A stretch of 64,000 nt of DNA from the human T2T-CHM13v2.0 reference genome, Homo sapiens. The notes under the pieces are model-generated. The model saw nothing but the letters and a program-made list of their open reading frames with translations, was not told the DNA's origin and did not search any database. Positions 12,171-61,290 of this stretch are shown here, piece after piece. The stretch is from positions 22,176,001 to 22,240,000 of the forward strand of contig CP068257.2 in assembly GCA_009914755.4 (NCBI GenBank), written 5' to 3'. Position 1 is the stretch's first letter. Each line of letters starts with the position of its first letter. A program made the translations under genes and the position numbers.

Positions 12171-14712
12171 TCAGTGGATGGCTTTCTGGTCAGGGAGCAG
12201 CAGGACACAGACAGAACTCTTGCTGTTTGGGTAACATTTGTAAGGGAATAATATAGTAAAAGTATTTTGAGACCTGGACAATAGACACCTTAAGAGTTGA
12301 TACATTTGAATATCTTTGATTGTAGACCATGGGAAACGGAGACTGAGAATTTTTGCTGAAATAAAGAAATCCTTAGATTTGTGCTTCAAGAAGTGTAATC
12401 TGCCAGTGAAGCATGAAAAGTATCACAGAAACAGAGAATGGAGGCAGAGAGACAAACGTAATGGTTCTGCCTCTATTTCAAACAGAATATTAAGGCCTTA
12501 AGGATGGTGGAAATAAAAATGAAGAGATGAAAAGAAATGGTAAATATTACAAAAAATGTATAAATAGAACCTACAAATACAGTAAATGTGGGGAAAATGT
12601 ACAGAGGTTTAATCAAGCATGAGGCTCACATTTATATAGTAAAACTGACACTAGAATGGATTTCATGTCTTTAGTATCATAAATTTGACGTGGTAAAACA
12701 TCACAATATTTTTATTCAATGCCACAAGGCATTCGAGTTTGAAAGCTAACCAAGTAGAAAAAAAAATGGTAAAAAGGATAGCTGCCTCAGTTTATAACAT
12801 ATTTTTTCACAGTTTCTCCTGGCATTAACAACAAATAATTCTTCCTTAGGGTGAAAAATGTAGGCAAAACTACTACTTGGCTAAAATTGCTAAATAAGTC
12901 AGCCCAGTCTTATCTGGGCCGAACTTGTATTTCTTGGCTAATGGAAGTTGGTTTTGTGTGTATCACCAATCACGAATCTTCTGAAGAGTTTATATTTTCT
13001 AAAATTGTATATTTTATGTCTTATATAATAAAATGTATGAGCCTGAAGGTTTGGAGACCAGGTTTTAGAAATAATTTTACACCCTAGTGCTTAAATATGC
13101 AATATCCATTCAGTAATTTAGATTAAAAATTACCAAAGCAGGATTCCTCTTGTTACGTTTGTACCATAAGTTAGCTTTGTCTTACTTTCTTCTATATTCT
13201 CAATCAGTTTTTGTAGATAAACCCTTTTTTTACTACTGTCAAGTTATATGCATTAAATTTATTAACCAGCAAAAGTATTTAAAGAGGGCCCTGCTAGATA
13301 CATATTTTATTTTTTTGGCATGCATTTGCATAAGTCTGTCAAAAGAGTATTATGGCTCACTTTTAAACATTCTAGATCCAGATTTTTTCCTTTAAATCTT
13401 GTAGGATGCATAGTAGAAAAATCAAATGTTATTACGGTTAAAATATAAAATGATCCACACTAAAATTTTAAAGAGTTTAACTCTTTAAAATAAAGAGAAT
13501 CAAATTCAAAATCATAGGCGTGTGAAAAGAAGGCTTTTATTTTTTTTAATAGGGTGAACATAGAAATAAAGAAAAGCACCTGTTTTATTGTTTGCAGCTA
13601 TGTAGTGGCCTTATTTGGTCTGTCCCATTGGAAAGTGCCTAGTTATATAACTATAAGTTAACTGGCAACCTGCTATTGGTTAAGCTTAACTTTCTTTTTT
13701 TTTTTTTTAAATATAGGCATTTACACAAAACAGCCTAAATTACATTTCACTTATGTTTGCATATCAAACAAGGTTAAGGCCACTTTCAAGGCCTGTCTTT
13801 TTCTGCTCAGGGATTATTTTCAGGCCTAGTCTCCATTTCATTTTACTTAAACTGGACCAATGACACATGATTACAAATTAGAAATGTATAAATACAAAGA
13901 TAACAGTGTGTAGTTTATGAGACAGATAGGCTCATAAACTGCATTTCTTCTCACACCCAACTTATCTCCATGTGGTGCACCTACCTACATCCTAAAGCAA
14001 AACCTTAAACGCCTTTAAAATAATCCAATGGAAGGAAAAAGGGGAAAAGAAAAAAGAGAGAGGCAAGAAAGAAGGAAGCACAAGTGATGGTAGTGAAAAG
14101 GAGAGACACATCTCTTCAGTTGGAACTTCCTACAGGAGGCTTTGCCAAGCCACCAAGTGATTAATTCAGATTTTGGCTGTGGCTTTCAGGAAAGAACACC
14201 TTGGAACTTTACTATTGAAACAGGAAAAGTTCCTTTGTCCCCCTCGCAGGGCGTGCAATGGGGGTGGGGCTCACTTATACAGCACCCCACTGCTCAGACC
14301 TCTAGGGGAGCATACAGACGGGCAGTCTGTGGGGGCTCCAACCCTACGGCAGTGTCTAGGGGTGAATGTTTACAGCTCCTGAAGCCCCAGTGGGCGTGTG
14401 TTACAGGGTTCTCTTTTAGTTTGGTGTTTATAGGCAGCCTGTGTCAACCAGCTCAATTAGACCCTCTATCTTGTCACAAGGACAGAGGGCTTTCTGTAAC
14501 CTGGGTTCTTGCCCTGGTGTACTGGAAGAATTGGATTACATGTGGGCTTGGAGAATGAATGCAAAGTTTCATTGAGTGGAAGTAGCTCTCTGCCGATAAG
14601 GGAGCCAGATAGGAGATGGATTCCCCTGGAGTTGAGCCACTCGGTGGCCCTGGTTCTCCTCCTACTGCACAGCCAAACTCCACATTGTTCCACCAGTCGG
14701 TGGCCTGCTGGC

Positions 14713-14808
14713 CTGCTGGCGCCTGTCAGCATGCTCTTCTGCTGGCATGCTCTCGTTGACCTGCTGGTGCCTGTCAGCATGCTCTTCTGCTGGCGTGCTC
14801 TCGTTGAC
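14713..14808. repeat. Tandem duplication of a 48-bp unit (2 copies, 2 transition mismatches) within a GC-rich segment
   Basis: ctgctggcgcctgtcagcatgctcttctgctggcatgctctcgttgac is immediately followed by ctgctggtgcctgtcagcatgctcttctgctggcgtgctctcgttgac. Nearby small repeats include cctgctgg x2 and ccagccacttgtgtct x2. Confidence 0.9.
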
Positions 14809-15152
14809 CAGCCACTTGTGTCTTCTTTCGCTGATGTGTTCTTCACGATGTCCAGCCACTTGTGTCTGCCTGCTAGGGTCTAAGATTTTTTTATAGGCCC
14901 AAGATAGGGGCGTGGTGGGCCGTGGTGGTCTTGGGAAATGCAACATTTGGGCACAAAGGCAGGAATGCCTGTCCTCACCTAGGTCCATGGGGGTGTAGCC
15001 CTAGCCAGGGATCACACCCTTCTCTACCCAGCACTTCTTCCCACTTCTGTTTCATTTAAAGGGACCATGCTCTTCCCTTCCCAGCACTCCTGTATCACTA
15101 CTCATAAACAAGACGAATATGCAACAAGGTTAGTTAAAAAAATAAAGTTGTT

Positions 15153-15447
15153 GGCTGGGTGTGGTGGCTCACGCCTGTAATCCCAGCACTTTGGGAAGTC
15201 GAGGCGGGCGGATCACCCGAGGTCAGGAGTTTGAGACCAGCCTGGCCAACATGGTGAAACCCCATCTCTCTAAAAATACAAAATTAGTCAGACGTGGTGG
15301 CACATGCCTGTAATCCCAATGACTCGGGAGGCTGAGACAGGAGAATTGCTTGAACCCAGGAGGCAGAGGTTGCAGTGAGCCAAGATCTCACTCCAGTCTG
15401 GGCAGAAAAGAGTGAAACTCTGTGTCAATAGTAATAATAATAATAAG
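15153..15447 (+). mobile_element. Alu SINE, sense
   Basis: Starts ggctgggtgtggtggctcacgcctgtaatcccagcactttggg and ends gagtgaaactctgtgtcaatagtaataataataataagg. Confidence 0.95.
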
Positions 15448-15559
15448 GCTGTCATTTTATTCATTTCTAATATACACAAGTAAATAAAGAATAGAAATTC
15501 AGCATTGTTTTTCTAAAATCAGAAGACATCCATTAGCCCCTGACCCCTACCCCAACCTG

Positions 15560-16500
15560 CAAATAGTTAGTAAAGATCAATTATGTTTCAGGCCCACTGG
15601 TAAATATTAATCTGGCTGTGTCCTGAAGTAGAAAAGATTGAGACTAATTGAAGAGTCTGGTGGGACTCCAGGATAAGGAATTCTTTAGAAAATTTCTACT
15701 AACCCAAGTGTCCTCGGAGACACACTTGGGTTAGCAGAAAGCTGGTAGTAGGGCCTGTCTCAGAGGGCTCTGGGGCACAATGACTGAGAATTTAGGAGAA
15801 GCCCACATAGCAACACTGTGCAGTGGCAAAGGATGCCACAGCAATGAGGACTTCCCAATGATGCCACGACAGGTGCAGGTGATAGGGAAAGGAGGCAGAG
15901 AAATTCTAGGCAGAAAAGGGCAAGTCCCCATAAAACCTCACCGTCAAGCCTGAAACCACAGCTCAAAGTGAGAACTTATATCCCTATTTTCCGGCCTGAA
16001 TGTCACCTTTTTCTAAACCAACCATGGACCACCCTGTCCCCATCTTGTGCCGATAAAAACCCCAGACTCAGCCCGTAAAGAGAGAGAAACAACTGGGTGC
16101 TAGAGAGTATGGCTGGACATCAGAGAGAAGTGGTTTGACTTCAGAAAGAGAGCTTGATGGTGTAACTCCAGAGAAGAATCCAGCAGGAGATGGCCAGACT
16201 TCAGGGGAAGATTAGCTTCCCACCCTATCTTCTTTTCTGCTCCCTTTTGACTAAGAGCCACTTTCATCGGCAATAAAGTCCCCTGCATTTACCATCCTTC
16301 AATTCGTTCATGTGACCTAATTTCTCCGGGATACTGGACAAGAGCTCGGGAGCCACGAGTGCAGATACAAAAGAATGTCGCACTGGCCCTTGGCCCTTGC
16401 TGGCAGAAGGCAACTGCCTTATGTGAAGAGGCAGAGACCCGCTGAGCAGTTAACACTCAGGCTGTCCACAGACAGCAGAGCTAAAAGAGCACTGTAACAC
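15560..16500 (+). mobile_element. ERV-type LTR-like segment of unidentified family
   Basis: Contains gccgataaaaaccccagactcagcc, a poly(A) signal context ggcaataaagtcccctgcatttacc, and a 3' part gagcagttaacactcaggctgtcc...gcactgtaacactc resembling R/U5 regions of class I ERV LTRs. The segment is moderately CpG-retaining. The family could not be assigned. Confidence 0.3.
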
Positions 16501-17150
16501 TCTCTCTGGGGATCCAGGGGTCATGGGCACTGCCCAGATGCTGCTGCAGGACCTGCATGGAGTTCGCTCCTGCAGCTCCCAAAAGCTCTTGCCTGGCTCC
16601 TGTACCTGCTCCCCTTCACACTCCCTCCCATGGGGGGTGGAACACAGCAGGTCTGAGTGGGTGGAGTTTGCCCTTGCTGGTGCTGAAGTGGCCGGCTGGT
16701 TCCATCACTCATGCACTCCAGTTCTCCCCTCATTCACTTACGTGTTTCCTCTATGAGGAGTTGAGAGCTGCAGGCTGAGTGGCCAAGGCAGCCCGTCATG
16801 AGTCCCGTGAAGGGATCAGGGAAATATCCTGCTTCAGAGGTCCCAACATAGACCTTCCTGTGACTGTGGGAGCCTGTGCTCCCAGCTATTGAGGTTTAAA
16901 CACAAAACAGAATCAATCACTAAGATCCTACTTTGTGGCAAACTCATTGAGTTCTATGATTGGGACTAAAATATTTTTGCATTACCATTGAAATTATTTA
17001 AATACTTCCTTTATGCTAACAGTTGCTAAACACAACATTCTTGACATATGGCTAAACATATTTAAAATTTATTAACTTTTCATGAGATGAATTATAGTTA
17101 TATTTTATATGTAAAATATGAAAATGTTCCTCATGCGAGCTTGCTAATTA

Positions 17151-17525
<375 letters not shown>

Positions 17526-18252
17526 TTAGTTAGGAGGATGAATGCCTGTGTGTGCTCCCTGGCGAAAAAAATAAAATATATACTTTGTATAGCTCTAGAG
17601 TGGTAAGGGATAAGAGATCTTCAGGGGCATCTAGTCCAGTTTCCATCTGATGTTGAATCACCTATCTAACAAAATGCCAGACATGTGCTCACCTAGGCTG
17701 TGCCTGAAAACTTTCAGTGATGCAGACAATATTATGGCTTAAGGTTCTGCTTCTCTAGAGGCAGTCAGAGTTATCCGTGGACAGCTCTGAGTGGTGGAAA
17801 ATTTCTCTTTACATTTAGCTAAAACTGTGTTCCCTGGAGTTTCATCTTTTTCATTCCAGTTTGAAGCATCAGGGCTATAAGGAACAAATCAAAGGCCTCT
17901 TGCACATGAAAGCACTTGGTCTATTTAAGGAGAACTCTCTTATTCCCCTTGAGTTTTCTCTTCTAGAGATTCAATATCCACAGTTTCTTTGAGGAGGCTT
18001 CATCTGTCATGTTGTCAATTCCCTTCATAATTTTAGTCTCCTCAGCTCTGAATGTCTTCCACTTTGTCAATATCTTTCTTAAAGTCTGGTGACTTGAATG
18101 GAACAAACAGATTCGGCCAAATGACAGGCAGTATACTGTCACTTTCTTTGTCCTGGGCTTCTGTCGCTTTTCTCATTTTACATGTCTATCAGTGTAACTA
18201 AGTTCAAAATGGCTTTTTAGGCAGTATGACTTATGATGATTCATGTTGTTAA

Positions 18253-25923: not shown

Positions 25924-28679
<2,756 letters not shown>

Positions 28680-49317: not shown

Positions 49318-50081
<764 letters not shown>

Positions 50082-50965
50082 GAAAGAAATTGCTCTGAGA
50101 GGCTGATTGTAGTCCTGTACTTCACCTTTTCCAATCTTCTGCTTCCTCACAGGTTTATCTCTCCATCCTCCTAAATTCAGTTGCTTATTCCCCAGAATAC
50201 ATGATAGGACATCTGTGGTGGCTTCTTCTGAGATTTATTTAGCCAGACTTTCATTAAAATAGCAACTGAATTGACTCAATAAAATGTTGCTTATCTTAAT
50301 AAAGCTCTTTAGAGCTTTGCAAATTTGCATTTAATACTCTTTAGTGTCATTATGGCATTAATAATCTGTGCCCAAAGAGCAATAAAAAAAAACTTTATAC
50401 TTTGTATTTAATAGAGGTAGCTTCATAACCCTTCATTTTCACGCAACTTGGGCTTTTAAATTACCAGACAGAAAAAGGCAGAATATTCATAGGCAAAATG
50501 TGGTCAAGTCTCAACGATAATACTACTTAGGCTGAATGAATCTGAGGCTTCTAGGATATCAGCCTCCTTATATTACCCAATTGAAGAAAATAATCCATAT
50601 CCATTTTTGCAAGCTTGTAACATGCACATCAACATCTCTTTAAGAAGAAATTGCTTTAGAGTCTCTTGAAATATTCTCATTGCTCTTAAGAATGAGATAG
50701 GAAGAGAGCAAAGAGAAGTAGGGATGAAGCTGTAAGTAAATGAGATGATATATTGGCTGATGCTTTAAGATAAGTCTTTCAAACCCATATGCTTAAATAA
50801 ATTATTAAATGGAATAAGAAAATGTTATGACTGACTTTGGCACCTTGCTCCCATCTCTTTACATCTAGTTTCTCCTGGCAGATTCTATTTGCATTTGTAG
50901 CATAAGTGAAAATGAAAGAAATATTGAGAAATATTTCAAATCTAGATTTCAAATAGCCACAGTTT

Positions 50966-52995
50966 GGTGACAAAACTCTCTCTTTGACCCAGCTGTAGCC
51001 AGGCTCCTCTAAGCACACTTACAGAGTAGGCCTTGACCTTAGCCGCCTATCCTTGTCTGATATGCATAGTCCAGTCTTAGCAAGGTTCTCCTTAGTTTAG
51101 AAAGAATCCCTGACCTCTGATACCGGATGACTCTCCATATCTGATCAGGTTTCTCATCTCCCATCTTTGTTGTCTATGTCTTTGGCCTGCCCTTCAGCAA
51201 GAATCCAATTAAGTTGGTTTAGCAAGAATTCCTCTATCTTTGATGCCTCCTCTTAGCAATTTTCCATCCACTGACCTTCTCACTCTCCTCTTTAGCTATA
51301 AATCTCCAGCTATCTTTACCACAGTCAAAGTTGACCCCCATTTCTTTCCCCGATAGCAGTAGTCTTGAATAAACCCTTCTTTACTGTTTTAATTACTGTC
51401 TGAATAATTTTTGGCTTCCCCATTTCCAGAAGCAACTGTGTTAAGGCAAATATGTAGTTATTTAGATGTACTGAGCAGACCAATATGGTGGCCAAGAACG
51501 CTGATGCAGGATGTCTTATATATGCACAGTCTTAAAGTTGTTTTACAGTGTAGCCAAAAAACAATTCCAGGAAATATTTGTTACTTTCCTGGGCTGTAGA
51601 ATACAGTATAGTGGGAAAGTCCTTTACATCGCCTAGAGTTTAAAGTCCATTTAGATGAAAATCAAGGTGTGTGTTTAGAAACAGGAGGGAATGCTTAGAA
51701 AGCTCCAGAAATGACACAACCCCCAGACTCTGCATTTGTTAAGTGTGTCATGTATGTTGCAACACAGGTTTTCCCTGGACTGCACTTGAAACAGCCACCA
51801 TCTCAGGTTTGCTATGAGATCAAGGTGGATTTTTCCAAATGAAAGATGTCTAATGAAAATGGAGATAAACCCTTGTAGCCACACTTCTTAACACCTACAG
51901 AATACCATCTCCAGCAAATCAACCAGAAGCATCTGCCAGTAAAACAACAGAGACGTGAGAAAAACAAAAAAAGACTCAAAAAACAAATTTGAAGGCAAAT
52001 ACCTCAAATTTGGACCAGGACAATAAAAGAACATGCTTTTTACATGCAAAAAAAATAAATAAAAATAAGGCCAATGTACATGGAGATGTGCACAGCAAGG
52101 GTGTGAGCTGAAGGAAAACAATCTTGACATTAAGCAGGAGTGTGAGTGAAGAACACGTCTATGGACTGACTATAAGGCAGCAAAGGCTGAAACAGGTTCA
52201 AGTTCCCACTGTGGGAGAGCTCCCTGACAGAGGAAAGGCAGTTTCTGGTGTTCCACGGAAGAAGGAAGAAAACAAAACCCTCCTTGAAGCAGGATGGCAG
52301 GAGCCAGTGACGAAAATCAGAATAACTTGCAGCAATATTTTTTTTCTTTTTCCTTTTTTAAAATAGCCGCTCTAAAGCAACTTTTCTGACAAGCAGTGTA
52401 CGGAAGGGCATAGAAGAGGATTAAATATTTTCTAGACCAGTATCAATTCAGTTAGATACAAGTTGAGAAAAATGTGATGCTTTGACCCACATGGTAATGT
52501 TTATTTTGCACTATTAATTTTTGCACTATTAAAGCATTTACTTATATTGTAATACTTGGCGACAAAACTCTCTCTTTGACCCAGCTGTAGCCAGGCTCCT
52601 CTAAGCACACTTACAGAGTAGGCCTTGACCTTAGCCGCCCATCCTTGCCTGATGTGCATAGTCCAGTCTTAGCAAGAGTTCTCCTTAGTTTAGAAAGAAT
52701 CCCTGACCTCTGATACCGGATGACTCTCCATATCTGATCAGGTTTCTCATCTCCCATCTTTGTTTTCTGTGTCTTTGGCCTGCCCTTCAGCAAGAATCCA
52801 ATTAAGTTGGTTTAGCAAGAATTCCTCTATCTTTGATGCCTCCTCTTAGCAACTTTCCAACCACCGACCTTCTCACTCTCCTCTTTAGCTATAAATCTCC
52901 AGCTATCTTTGCTACAGTCAAAGTTGACCCCCATTTCTTTCCCCGATAGCAGTAGTCTTGAATAAACCCTTCTTTACTGTTTTAATTACTGTCTG
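50966..52995 (+). mobile_element. LTR retrotransposon-like element of unidentified family: two direct LTR-like repeats of about 440 bp (50966-51404 and 52556-52995) flanking an internal region of about 1.15 kb (51405-52555) with no ORF
   Basis: The two repeats align end to end (tgg(t/c)gacaaaactctctctttgacccagctgtagccaggctcc ... tcttgaataaacccttctttactgttttaattactgtctgaataa) with about 12 differences in about 440 bp, roughly 97% identity. Each carries TATAAA (agctataaatctcc) about 75 bp upstream of AATAAA (cttgaataaaccc). Flanks outside the repeats are unrelated. A diverged copy of the internal/3' LTR junction (about 80% identity) occurs at 60887-61010. Confidence 0.5.
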
Positions 52996-53040
52996 AATAA
53001 ATTTTGTCTTTAACATTGACCCTATTTATATTTCTAGTGA

Positions 53041-55602: not shown

Positions 55603-57419
55603 TAACAGAAAGTTTTACTCTCTGCATCCAAGGGAGGACAGTTATCTGCTCTTGAGGCCGAGAGAGTAAAGAAAAGAAAGTAACATGAGCAAGTCTAACT
55701 CTTCATGCAATTGAGCATAGCAAAAATAACATGTTTGGGTGCTTAAAAGCCCTGATTTTGAATTCATGCTCCAAAACTGTCAACAAATATGCTGAGCTTT
55801 ACAAAAAAAAAAAAAAAAAAAAAGCTATTCAAGATCCCTTCTTTGAAAATTTAGAAATGCTTTATGCTTCTTTTGTAACTAGTTAAGACACGCTTGCGTA
55901 TTATTTTGTTATAGTTTCTATTTTCTGAGATTACATTTAAAAAAATAGTGTGAAGGAAGGGTGTGCATCCTTGATAGAACAGTAGATGTAAAGATGCATT
56001 CAATTCCTGAGTAGCTATGGAAAAAAACCCAGGCATGTACTTGTCAAGGCAAGAGTTCTAAAGTATTTTGTTTTATTTACCCAATCTCTTAAAACTAAGA
56101 AGTAATTGTCTTTTAGGAAATACTTTTATTCTTCAATTAAATAACAATAATAGCTGTATGGAGACAGAAGCAACATTTCGTCATTGAGATTAAGAGTTGC
56201 ATATAGGGTATTTAGTTTGTTTCCACACAATTCAAGTGAAGTCTGTGAATATGTCTTGGTGTAGGCAAAATGATTTTTCTGTTGAAATAAAGGCTTTTCT
56301 TCTCTGATGAACATAGATTTGTGCAGAGCCAGGTACCTGCAGATTCCCAGTTACATAATGAAAATGTGAGTGAAAGGCAGGCTGGTGTTCTGGCTTTTGT
56401 TTCATTCCCTGAACTAAATATATCTCTGAAATTATCAACATCTATTTGTACTTATATAATAAAAAATAAAAATTATGCTCTTCTCACCTTCTCAGAAACT
56501 AGAGTGATTGTAATTCATAGTACATATAAATGCATAGTACTGTGTACACATGTAATATATATAAAAAGCTGAAACGTACAAAAGATCTTCATCTGTCTCG
56601 CTTATACTCACCTGAAATTGAGCTAAAATTAAGGCAAAAGATTGATACAAATATCTATTCACAAAGGCTTGAGTTTTTATAAAAGTTTCAATTCCACTCA
56701 CTGAAATAGTTTATCTATATGTACACTGGCCAAATCATAAAATCTTATTCCAGAAGCATAATGAGCAAAACCTGAAGATCAAAAATGGATACAGATAATT
56801 CTCAAAGAAAGCCAGCAGAGAATATTCATTCTCAGTAGTCTCCACTGAGGCTAGTGTGAACAGAACAACTGTGGAATTAACACTAATACAAATGGAATCA
56901 GTCTATTTATAGAGACTGATAAAAACTTCAGCCGAATTAAATTTAAAGGAGTTTAATTGAGTAATGAACGATTCACAAATCAGGCAGACCCAGAATCGCA
57001 GCAGTTTACAGAGACTCCAGCACAGCCACGTGGTGGAAGATCTATAGACAAAAGCGGAAAATGACATACAGAAATCAGAAGTGAAGTTCAGAAACAGCTG
57101 GATTGGTTACACCTGGCGTTTGCCTTATTTGAGCAGTTTGGACACTCAGCAGTGTATGAGCGGTTGAAGTACGGCCACCGGGATTGGCCAAGACTCAGCT
57201 ATTGTTACAGGTGCATACTCCTAACTAACATTTTCAATTCTGTCTACCAATTAAGCTAGGTCGCAGTTCGTCCACAAGGACTCAAATATGGAAGTACAGA
57301 GTCCTTCTCGGGCCATATTTAGTTTGCTTTAACAAGACTATTTATAGAGCACTATATAACACGTCCAGCAATCAATAGACTGTTTGGTTTTATTTCTATA
57401 GAATGTTTTATTGCCTGAA

Positions 57420-57735
57420 TTATTCCCCCCACCACAACCTGGAACTCCTATGCTGAAGTCTTAATTCCCGGTAACCCAGAGTGTGCTTGTATTTGGAGAT
57501 GGGATCTTTAAAGTGGTAAGTGAGGGAAAATGAAGTCATATGTGTGTGGGCTAATTCAAATGTGACCCTTGTCCTTTTAGGAACAAGAGATTAGGACGCA
57601 GACAACACAGACTTAAGAGGTGATCATGTGAGGATACAGCAATAAGATGACCATCTATAAGCCAAAGATAGGCCTCAGAATGAAATCAACCCTGTTGACA
57701 CCTGAATCTCCAGAACTGTGAGAAATAAATTTTCA
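57420..57735 (+). mobile_element. MaLR-type ancient LTR fragment (3' portion)
   Basis: Recalled consensus blocks: gtatttggagatgggatctttaaagtggtaagtgagggaaaatgaagtcat, ttaggaacaagagattaggacgcagacaacacag, catgtgaggatacagcaataagatgaccatctataagccaaag, cctgaatctccagaactgtgagaaataaattttc. An Alu abuts its end. Confidence 0.45.
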
Positions 57736-60699: not shown

Positions 60700-61290
60700 T
60701 CACTGGCTGTATTTGCTAGGGCTGCTCTAAGCACGTACCACAGAGTTCGTTGCTTTAAAAACAGCAATTTATTGAAGCTAGAACTCCAAAATCAAGGTGT
60801 TGGCAGGGTTTGTCCCTTCTATGGCCTGCAATGGGAGGGTCAGCCCCAAACTTTGTTCCTTCATTTGTGGATGGTCATCTTAACATTTATTTTGCACTAA
60901 CAATCTTTGCACTATTAAAACATTTACTTATATTGTACTATTTACTTAGTGACAAAGGCTCCCTCTCTTTAACCAAACATTAGCCATGCTCCTCTCTATG
61001 TTATATATTAGCCACATCTTCTCTCTATGTCTCTCTGTGGTCATCTTCTCTCTATGTCTTTACATCATCTCCCTATGTGTGGTTTGATATCTATATTCCC
61101 CCTTTTTATAAGGACACCAGTCATGTTAGATTAGGGTCCACATTAGCGACCTCACTTTAATTCGATTATCTCGGTGTCTTTACAAGACACTGTCTCCACA
61201 TAAGGTCATACTCTGAGGTATTGAGGGTTAGGACTTCAACATATGATTTTTAGGAGGGTAAAATTCAGCCCATAACACCGATTATAATTT
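60700..61290 (+). mobile_element. MaLR-type (MLT1-like) ancient LTR with an embedded segment of about 130 bp (60887-61010) homologous to the internal/LTR junction of the element at 52497-52600
   Basis: 5' blocks: gctgctctaagcacgtaccacagagttcgttgctttaaaaacagcaatttattg, ctagaactccaaaatcaaggtgttggcaggg. 3' blocks: tataaggacaccagtcatgttagattagggtccacattagcgacctcactttaattc, ctgtctccacataaggtcatactctgaggtattgagggttaggacttcaacatatgatttttaggagggtaaaattcagcccataaca. Confidence 0.4.

What the first reader, a model, noticed from the sequence alone, without database searches (positions are those of the whole stretch)
50966..52995. Compact LTR-internal-LTR element with about 97% identical 440-bp LTRs, family not recognised
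Two direct repeats of about 440 bp (50966-51404 and 52556-52995) differ at only about 12 positions, mostly CpG-type transitions plus one 1-bp indel. Each carries a TATAAA box about 75 bp upstream of an AATAAA signal, which is the U3-R layout of a retroviral or MaLR LTR. Flanks outside the repeats are unrelated, so this is not a simple tandem duplication. The 1.15-kb interior has no ORF. A diverged copy (about 80%) of the junction between the interior 3' end and the start of the downstream LTR is embedded in an MLT1-like LTR at 60887-61010, which argues that the junction belongs to a dispersed repeat family. If LTR divergence is taken at face value, a small non-autonomous LTR element this similar would be unusually young for a human LTR retroelement outside HERV-K. 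The alternatives are gene conversion between the LTRs or a known family I failed to recognise.
Basis: partly seen in the sequence, partly recalled or inferred. Interest (0 to 1): 0.6.

Follow-up and report, generated by a model that had tools for sequence, protein, structure and literature searches.

The report
Damaged LTR-like repeat pair, probably ordinary
Two 455-base copies of an LTR-like sequence really do flank 1.14 kb of non-coding DNA, but the structure lacks the marks of a fresh retroelement insertion, its age is a common one for primate LTR elements, and it is most likely an ordinary, already catalogued repeat remnant.

Summary
The direct repeats are 50964-51417 and 52556-53010: 455 columns, 13 substitutions plus 1 indel, 96.9% identity, K2P 0.029. 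They flank a 1138-bp interior with no coding signal. TATAAA lies 71 bp upstream of AATAAA in both copies. A third, 78-86% identical fragment at 60871-60995 sits inside an MLT1-type LTR.

- Only 2 of the 13 substitutions are CpG-type.
- A divergence of about 3% (about 7-15 My) is a common age class for human LTR elements outside HERV-K, not an unusual one.

The element also fails most tests for a clean retrotransposon insertion.
- There is no target-site duplication.
- There is no tRNA primer-binding site after the 5' copy.
- There is no polypurine tract before the 3' copy.
- There are no TG...CA ends at the repeat edges.
- The third copy runs about 70 bp past the supposed LTR start, so the 5' copy looks truncated.

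Best reading: a damaged, non-autonomous LTR-type remnant. Its two copies were last identical in the Miocene, either through insertion or through gene conversion. A DNA-level partial duplication is a serious rival.

I could not assign a family, because no repeat library or primate genome was available. Low interest.

The parts
50964..51417 (+). Upstream direct repeat (copy 1, LTR-like). It probably lacks the first 60-70 bp of the family unit.
   Evidence: blastn and global alignment with copy 2: 455 columns, 96.9% identity. Homology with the third copy starts only at the shared TTGGTGAC.
51297..51373 (+). TATAAA (51297-51302) and AATAAA (51368-51373) in copy 1, 71 bp apart. This is a putative U3/R promoter and poly(A) layout. 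The repeat ends about 45 bp after the AATAAA, which leaves a very short U5.
   Evidence: Motif positions and chance estimate. The functional reading is inference.
51418..52555 (+). Interior between the repeats, 1138 bp and non-coding. It has an A-rich stretch at about 51955-52075 and a T-rich stretch at about 52338-52362.
   Evidence: Longest ORF is 80 aa. No Pfam match in six frames. No protein relatives. No similarity to the rest of the window except its last 70 bp.
52485..52555 (+). Last 70 bp of the 'interior'. In the third copy this stretch is contiguous with the start of the repeat, so it is family sequence and may be the true 5' part of the LTR (a TG lies at 52497). It is not purine-rich.
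   Evidence: nhmmer and MAFFT, 54/63 identical. Purine-run scan.
52556..53010 (+). Downstream direct repeat (copy 2, LTR-like). TATAAA at 52890, AATAAA at 52961, and a second AATAAA at 52996 created by a T-to-A difference. The next 5 bases (TAACA, to 53015) would give a CA end, but they do not match copy 1.
60871..60995 (+). Third, diverged copy of the junction region (equivalent to 52485-52602). It lies inside a minus-strand MLT1-type MaLR LTR (about 60709-61281) and is bracketed by repeats of the MLT1 motif GGTCATCTT / CATCTT.
   Evidence: The MLT1 context comes from reading the sequence and from comparison with a second MLT1-like copy at 57397-57659. The MLT1 identification itself is from memory of the consensus and was not tested against a library.

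Best explanation
This is a damaged, non-autonomous LTR-type element, or the remnant of one, from an ordinary and probably already catalogued primate LTR family.

The family unit is an LTR of roughly 455-520 bp. It has a U3 region with short internal repeats, a TATA box, a poly(A) signal 71 bp downstream of it and a very short U5. Copy 2 (52556-53010, perhaps starting near 52495) is the more complete LTR. Copy 1 (50964-51417) is the partner LTR and has lost its 5' end and the outer flank. The 1.1 kb between them is a non-coding interior.

The two copies were last identical roughly 7-15 million years ago. That date marks either the insertion or, as I think somewhat more likely given the missing primer-binding site, polypurine tract and target-site duplication, a later homogenisation of the two closely spaced LTRs of an older element by gene conversion.

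Shown: the repeat structure, its statistics, the absence of coding capacity and the absence of the hallmarks. Inferred: the LTR identity, the truncation and the choice between conversion and insertion.
For: - The pair is 455 columns long at 96.9% identity, in direct orientation and 1138 bp apart. It is by far the best non-Alu self-match in the window.
- TATAAA followed by AATAAA occurs in the same order and spacing on the + strand of both copies, and neither hexamer occurs on the minus strand.
- Flanks are unrelated to each other and to the interior, so this is not a simple tandem duplication.
- A third, 78-86% identical fragment shows the sequence belongs to something present more than once and much older than 3% divergence.
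- The 14 differences are evenly spread (KS p = 0.85), as expected from a single whole-length origin.
- CpG observed/expected in the LTRs (0.16 and 0.26) and in the interior (0.19) is at the window background of 0.22. The sequence is therefore not CpG-rich as a fresh exogenous provirus would be.
- Gene conversion between the two LTRs that flank a HERV has been observed directly in humans (PMC4921805).
- The age class is common: 568 dated human loci fall at 6.6-31.6 My (PMC4335370).
Against: - No target-site duplication at or near the repeat edges.
- No primer-binding site. The best match to 18 tRNA-derived PBS strings, which I supplied from memory, is 11/18, equal to the mode in shuffles. The only TGG near the end of copy 1 (51411) has C where a PBS needs G to pair with the invariant tRNA C61 (plus established tRNA structure).
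- No polypurine tract next to 52556 or 52495.
- The repeat edges are TTGG...CTT, not TG...CA.
- The truncation of copy 1 is inferred from a single 125-bp third copy.
- No family could be named, and no other copies could be retrieved from any accessible collection.
Confidence: 0.5

Rival explanations
1. DNA-level partial duplication. Copy 2 is a solo LTR-like repeat (or part of some other old repeat) in its native context. About 7-15 My ago a 455-bp internal part of it was copied about 1.6 kb upstream by a replication or repair error such as template switching. The 'interior' is then simply the host DNA that lay between the two sites.
For: - Both edges of copy 1 look like breakpoints inside a longer unit. 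The third copy continues 70 bp left of the boundary.
- Copy 2 reaches a CA end 5 bp beyond the homology.
- There is no TSD, PBS or PPT.
- The sequence just upstream of 52556 is conserved family sequence and is not purine-rich.
- The only other copy found lies just 8 kb away, which fits local copying as well as it fits a dispersed family.
Against: - Non-tandem insertional duplications of this size are much rarer than LTR-interior-LTR structures in primate genomes (general knowledge).
- No microhomology or flank duplication is visible at the junctions.
- Direct orientation with a 1-2 kb spacer is exactly the geometry of non-autonomous LTR elements.
Confidence: 0.28
2. One reading: an intact, genuinely young (hominoid-age) retrotransposition of a small non-autonomous LTR element. 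It might come from a family that was not recognised, or even from an uncatalogued one.
For: - LTR divergence is 2.9% with evenly spread differences.
- The TATA and poly(A) layout is present in both copies.
- The interior is non-coding, as in MaLR-type elements.
- A junction-containing fragment occurs elsewhere in the window.
Against: - At about 1.5% change per copy, an 18-nt PBS, a PPT and a 4-6 bp TSD should all still be readable. None is present.
- The ends are not TG...CA.
- The family sequence immediately upstream of the supposed U3 start is not a polypurine tract in either of two copies that differ by about 17%.
- The age would not be unusual anyway.
Confidence: 0.12
3. Two independent insertions of the same LTR family, 1.6 kb apart and in the same orientation, later homogenised by gene conversion over their shared part.
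For: This would explain the unequal extents of the two copies and the absence of a shared TSD, PBS and PPT. Ectopic LTR gene conversion is documented (PMC4921805).
Against: It needs two hits of a family that is rare in this window within 1.6 kb, in the same orientation, followed by whole-length conversion. The even spread of differences gives no sign of patchy conversion tracts.
Confidence: 0.05

Closest known systems
MaLR non-autonomous LTR retrotransposons (THE1 / MST / MLT1 with their -int sequences)
   Same: Overall size is about 2 kb. LTRs of 350-450 bp flank a 1-1.6 kb interior with no pol. The LTR carries a TATA box and a poly(A) signal close to its 3' end, which gives a short U5.
   Different: No sequence similarity to the two MLT1-type LTRs in the same window beyond the embedded 125-bp fragment. 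The ends do not have the MaLR TGT...ACA form. There is no 5-bp TSD and no PBS. The MaLR features listed here are from my own knowledge.
Deleted class I HERV proviruses of hominoid or catarrhine age (for example HERV-H with 450-bp LTR7)
   Same: LTR length is about 450 bp. LTR-LTR divergence of a few percent falls in the commonest age class of human ERV loci (PMC4335370).
   Different: There is no gag, pol or env remnant in any frame. No PBS was found, including the His, Glu, Phe, Trp, Lys and Pro types. The LTR start does not resemble the LTR7 consensus as I remember it; that comparison is from memory and was not tested.
LTR pairs homogenised by gene conversion
   Same: These are closely spaced direct repeats whose similarity understates the age of the element. 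The third copy at about 80% identity and the decayed hallmarks point to an older origin than 3% divergence suggests. The process is documented for HERV-flanking LTRs (PMC4921805).
   Different: No patchy tracts are visible; the differences are evenly spread. Conversion cannot be shown without orthologous sequences from other primates.
TRIM / LARD-type non-autonomous LTR elements (plants and some animals)
   Same: Terminal direct repeats flank a short non-coding interior.
   Different: Those families are defined by a PBS and a PPT next to the repeats and by TSDs. All three were tested here and not met.

Membership tests
LTR retrotransposon / endogenous provirus (generic) | Two long terminal repeats in direct orientation flanking a unique interior | tested here: met
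   454/455-bp repeats at 96.9% identity, separated by 1138 bp.
LTR retrotransposon / endogenous provirus (generic) | LTR termini 5'-TG...CA-3' with short inverted ends | tested here: inconclusive
   The homology edges read TTGG...CTT. TG is present one base inside the left edge, but there is no CA at the right edge. A CA lies 5 bp further on in both copies, yet those 5 bases match at only 2 of 5 positions. A TGTT...AACA reading is possible only if the LTR is 52497-53015 and copy 1 is truncated on both sides.
LTR retrotransposon / endogenous provirus (generic) | Target-site duplication of 4-6 bp immediately outside the two LTRs | tested here: not met
   A systematic search for k = 4-6 over flank-end positions 50945-50971 and flank-start positions 52985-53034 found no pair compatible with the edges.
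LTR retrotransposon / endogenous provirus (generic) | tRNA primer-binding site within a few bases of the 5' LTR end | tested here: not met
   The best match is 11/18 to any of 18 PBS strings, equal to the mode of 500 shuffles, and it lies 70 bp downstream. The TGG at 51411 is not tRNA-like at position 16. Caveat: the PBS panel was written from memory and does not cover all tRNAs.
LTR retrotransposon / endogenous provirus (generic) | Polypurine tract immediately upstream of the 3' LTR | tested here: not met
   The only purine run of 7 or more bases in the last 100 bp is GAGAAAAA at 52465. That is 90 bp from 52556 and 30 bp from 52495.
LTR retrotransposon / endogenous provirus (generic) | U3-R-U5 signals (TATA box upstream of a poly(A) signal) in the LTR | tested here: met
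   TATAAA and AATAAA lie 71 bp apart in both copies, on the + strand only. Specificity is modest: 1.3% of shuffles and 5.7% of window tiles show the same layout.
LTR retrotransposon / endogenous provirus (generic) | Dispersed family: other copies of the LTR and the interior elsewhere in the genome | not testable with these tools
   Only one 125-bp fragment was found, 8 kb away. No primate genome or repeat library was reachable.
MaLR (ERVL-MaLR: THE1/MST/MLT1) | Sequence similarity of the LTR to MaLR LTRs | tested here: not met
   No alignment to the MLT1-type LTRs at 60709-61281 or 57397-57659 apart from the embedded fragment. Only two MaLR copies were available for comparison, so this is a weak test.
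Autonomous ERV (any class) | gag / pro / pol / env remnants in the interior | tested here: not met
   Six-frame translation against Pfam gave no match at E <= 1. There were no homologues among 5.8 billion proteins.
Named Dfam/Repbase family | Match to a curated consensus or HMM | not testable with these tools
   No repeat library is present in the sandbox. Rfam found only Alu/SRP-related hits. A literature search with sequence strings found nothing.

The most novel reading that the evidence does not exclude
The pair belongs to a low-copy, so far uncatalogued non-autonomous LTR family that was still being mobilised in hominoid ancestors about 10-15 My ago. It would have used an unconventional priming or integration route, since it has no PBS, PPT or TSD.
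Probability: 0.03. Interest if true: 0.4.

Novelty: already known. Interest (0 to 1): 0.1.

Why it matters
It matters little. If this is an ordinary LTR remnant, its only lesson is methodological. LTR-LTR identity on its own is not an age, and a TATA-plus-AATAAA layout with direct repeats is not enough to call a young retroelement without a TSD, a PBS and a PPT. It would matter modestly if primate comparisons showed a whole-length LTR-LTR gene conversion in a 2-kb element, which would be a clean example of dating bias. It would also matter modestly if the family proved to be uncatalogued.

Tried and rejected
**Simple tandem duplication.** Rejected: the 3' flank is unrelated to the interior, and the flanks are unrelated to each other.

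**Insertion of the interior with a long 455-bp target duplication, for example L1-mediated.** Rejected: neither end of the interior carries a poly(A) or poly(T) tract. The interior/copy-2 junction is also contiguous in the third copy.

**Minus-strand orientation of the element.** Rejected: neither hexamer (TATAAA, AATAAA) occurs on that strand, no PBS is found there, and only a short GGGGAAG purine run is present.

**Coding remnants.** None found.

**Retrieving other family copies or orthologues.** None of these routes produced a related sequence.
- Six-frame chimeric protein queries of the LTR and the interior against 5.8 billion proteins found nothing.
- Exact-ORF look-ups found nothing on record.
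- A 20-mer scan of bacterial/archaeal genomes and viral contigs found nothing.
- The same 20-mer in metagenomes gave 2 hits, both bare 20-21 nt chance matches.
- A 29-mer junction pattern found nothing.
- blastn against plasmids and phages found nothing.
- A full-text literature search with six sequence strings found nothing.

**Rfam.** Only Alu/SRP-type hits, plus a sub-threshold JPX_1 match (E = 0.13) in the interior that I treat as chance.

**Repeat library in the sandbox.** None present.

**Reconstructing an empty site from the flanks.** Not possible: the flanks are unique in the window.

**Kijima & Innan 2010 on LTR gene conversion.** Not readable; the paper is not held.

Full report
**1. 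The observation**

The window is AT-rich primate DNA with many Alu copies. Evidence: the self-matches, the SRP/Alu hits, and the composition profile.

Within it, 50964-51417 and 52556-53010 form a direct repeat of 455 aligned columns at 96.9% identity. This is the strongest self-match in the window; all other strong pairs are Alus at 80-85%.

A formal count gives 454 aligned bases with 9 transitions, 4 transversions and one 1-bp indel. The p-distance is 0.0286 and K2P is 0.0293. The differences are evenly spread (KS p = 0.85; largest identical run 88 bp, P = 0.63).

TATAAA (51297, 52890) lies 71 bp upstream of AATAAA (51368, 52961) on the + strand only. That layout occurs in 1.3% of shuffles of the repeat and in 5.7% of 455-bp tiles of this window, so it is supportive but not strong.

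The flanks are unrelated to each other and to the interior. The interior (51418-52555) has no ORF above 80 aa, no Pfam match in any frame at E <= 1 and no relatives among 5.8 billion predicted proteins.

**2. The third copy**

nhmmer of the element against the whole window finds exactly one further match: 52485-52602 to 60871-60995, E = 1.8e-11.

It lies inside a sequence that I recognise from memory as a minus-strand MLT1-type MaLR LTR at about 60709-61281. I did not test that identification against a library. A second MLT1-like fragment at 57397-57659 aligns only to the part to the right of the insert. The foreign segment is bracketed by two copies of the MLT1 motif GGTCATCTT / CATCTT.

The important point is where the homology runs. 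It crosses the supposed LTR start at 52556 and continues about 70 bp into the 'interior'. Identity is 54/63 (86%) there and 37/47 (79%) inside the repeat.

So the sequence just upstream of 52556 is family sequence, and in both copies it is AT-rich and mixed rather than a polypurine tract. Two readings follow. Either the true LTR starts further upstream (a TG sits at 52497, where the homology begins) and copy 1 is 5'-truncated, or 52556 is simply a breakpoint.

**3. Hallmark tests for a retrotransposed LTR element**

- Target-site duplication: none for k = 4-6 at or within about 15 bp of the edges.
- Termini: TTGG...CTT at the homology edges. A CA lies 5 bp beyond in each copy, but those 5 bases agree at only 2 positions.
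- Primer-binding site: the best match to 18 PBS strings is 11/18. I supplied those strings from memory, so this rests on established knowledge and not on a database. That score is the modal best score in 500 shuffles, and the match is 70 bp from the LTR end. The only TGG at the end of copy 1 (51411, TGGCTTCCCCATTTCCAG) has C at PBS position 16, where G is needed opposite the invariant tRNA C61. It also lies inside the repeated block.
- Polypurine tract: absent next to 52556 and next to 52495.
- Minus-strand orientation: this does no better.

At about 1.5% change per copy since the two repeats were identical, a functional PBS, PPT and TSD should still be legible. Their joint absence argues against a clean insertion 7-15 My ago. 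It points instead to an older, decayed and damaged element whose LTRs were homogenised, or to a DNA-level copy.

**4. Age and the 'unusually young' claim**

K2P 0.0293 gives 14.6, 11.3 or 6.7 My at 1.0, 1.3 or 2.2 x 10^-9 substitutions per site per year.

Magiorkinis et al. 2015 used the same LTR method at 1.0 x 10^-9. They place 568 human ERV loci between 6.6 and 31.6 My. HERV-H accounts for 88% of all integrations of the last 30 My, and 15 other families make up their 'other' group (PMC4335370). A pair that differs by 3% is therefore in the commonest dated age class and is not exceptional outside HERV-K.

The same paper attributes odd near-identical LTR pairs in old families to chance identity between short LTR fragments or to gene conversion. 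Trombetta et al. 2016 observed conversion between the two LTRs flanking a HERV directly (PMC4921805).

CpG observed/expected is 0.16 and 0.26 in the repeats and 0.19 in the interior, against 0.22 for the window. The element is at background CpG depletion.

**5. What it most likely is**

I rank the readings as follows.

- (a) A damaged non-autonomous LTR-type remnant of an ordinary, probably catalogued family. Copy 2 is the more complete LTR and copy 1 is truncated. The 3% divergence dates either the insertion or, as I think somewhat more likely, a whole-length homogenisation. Confidence 0.5.
- (b) A DNA-level partial duplication of a solo LTR-like repeat, with the 'interior' being host DNA. 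Confidence 0.28.
Confidence 0.12.
- (d) Two independent insertions followed by conversion. Confidence 0.05.

The general architecture works like a MaLR or TRIM-type non-autonomous LTR element. Membership of any named family could not be tested, and four of the generic defining features were tested with a negative or inconclusive result.

**6. Limits**

No repeat library and no primate genome were reachable. Every indirect route was tried and failed:
- spurious-ORF protein searches;
- exact ORF look-ups;
- pattern scans of bacterial/archaeal genomes, viral contigs and metagenomes;
- plasmid and phage BLAST;
- a sequence-string literature search;
- Rfam.

The species is also not established; only 'Alu-bearing primate' is shown.

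**7. Verdict**

The feature is real and the description is mostly accurate. The interpretation overreaches on youth and on intactness, and the finding is most likely ordinary. Interest 0.1.

Noticed in passing
window 49972-50081: A near-perfect palindrome with 48-nt arms that are 94% complementary and a 14-nt spacer. As single-stranded DNA it folds at -44.4 kcal/mol, z = -13.7 against shuffles. GAAATGAAAG occurs just upstream (49939-49948) and again across its right end (50077-50086). It may be a MITE-like DNA-transposon relic or an inverted duplication.
   Followed up: partly
window 60868-61047: The foreign segment of about 125-160 bp inside the MLT1-type LTR is bracketed by direct repeats of the MLT1 motif (GGTCATCTT at 60874-60882 and 61039-61047; CATCTTCTCTCTATGTCT occurs twice). 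It looks like an insertion or templated repair patch combined with a local tandem duplication.
   Followed up: partly
window 57397-57659 and 60709-61281: Two MLT1-type MaLR LTR fragments in opposite orientations, 3 kb apart. The first matches only the half of the second that lies right of the foreign insert. The family call is from memory of the MLT1 consensus.
   Followed up: partly
window 52996-53001: A T-to-A difference at 53001 (51408 in copy 1) gives copy 2 a second AATAAA, 35 bp after the first. Copy 1 has AATAAT at that position.
   Followed up: yes
window 51705-51823 (minus strand): A sub-threshold Rfam match to JPX_1, the conserved region 1 of the JPX lncRNA, inside the interior: 25.3 bits against a gathering score of 55, E = 0.13. 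Probably chance.
   Followed up: no
window 14000-18000 and 26000-28000: GC-richer patches (0.46-0.48 against about 0.37 elsewhere). They hold overlapping ORFs of 110-140 aa on both strands and an internal protein-level repeat (ARQQKSMLTG.SR twice) at 14466-14846. They could be another LTR or VNTR-like repeat, or a CpG-rich element.
   Followed up: no
window about 39770-40000 and about 45810-46100: Dinucleotide microsatellites, (CA/TG)n and (TA)n-like, abut Alu tails. They show up as poly-(CV) and (YI) runs in the ORF translations.
   Followed up: no
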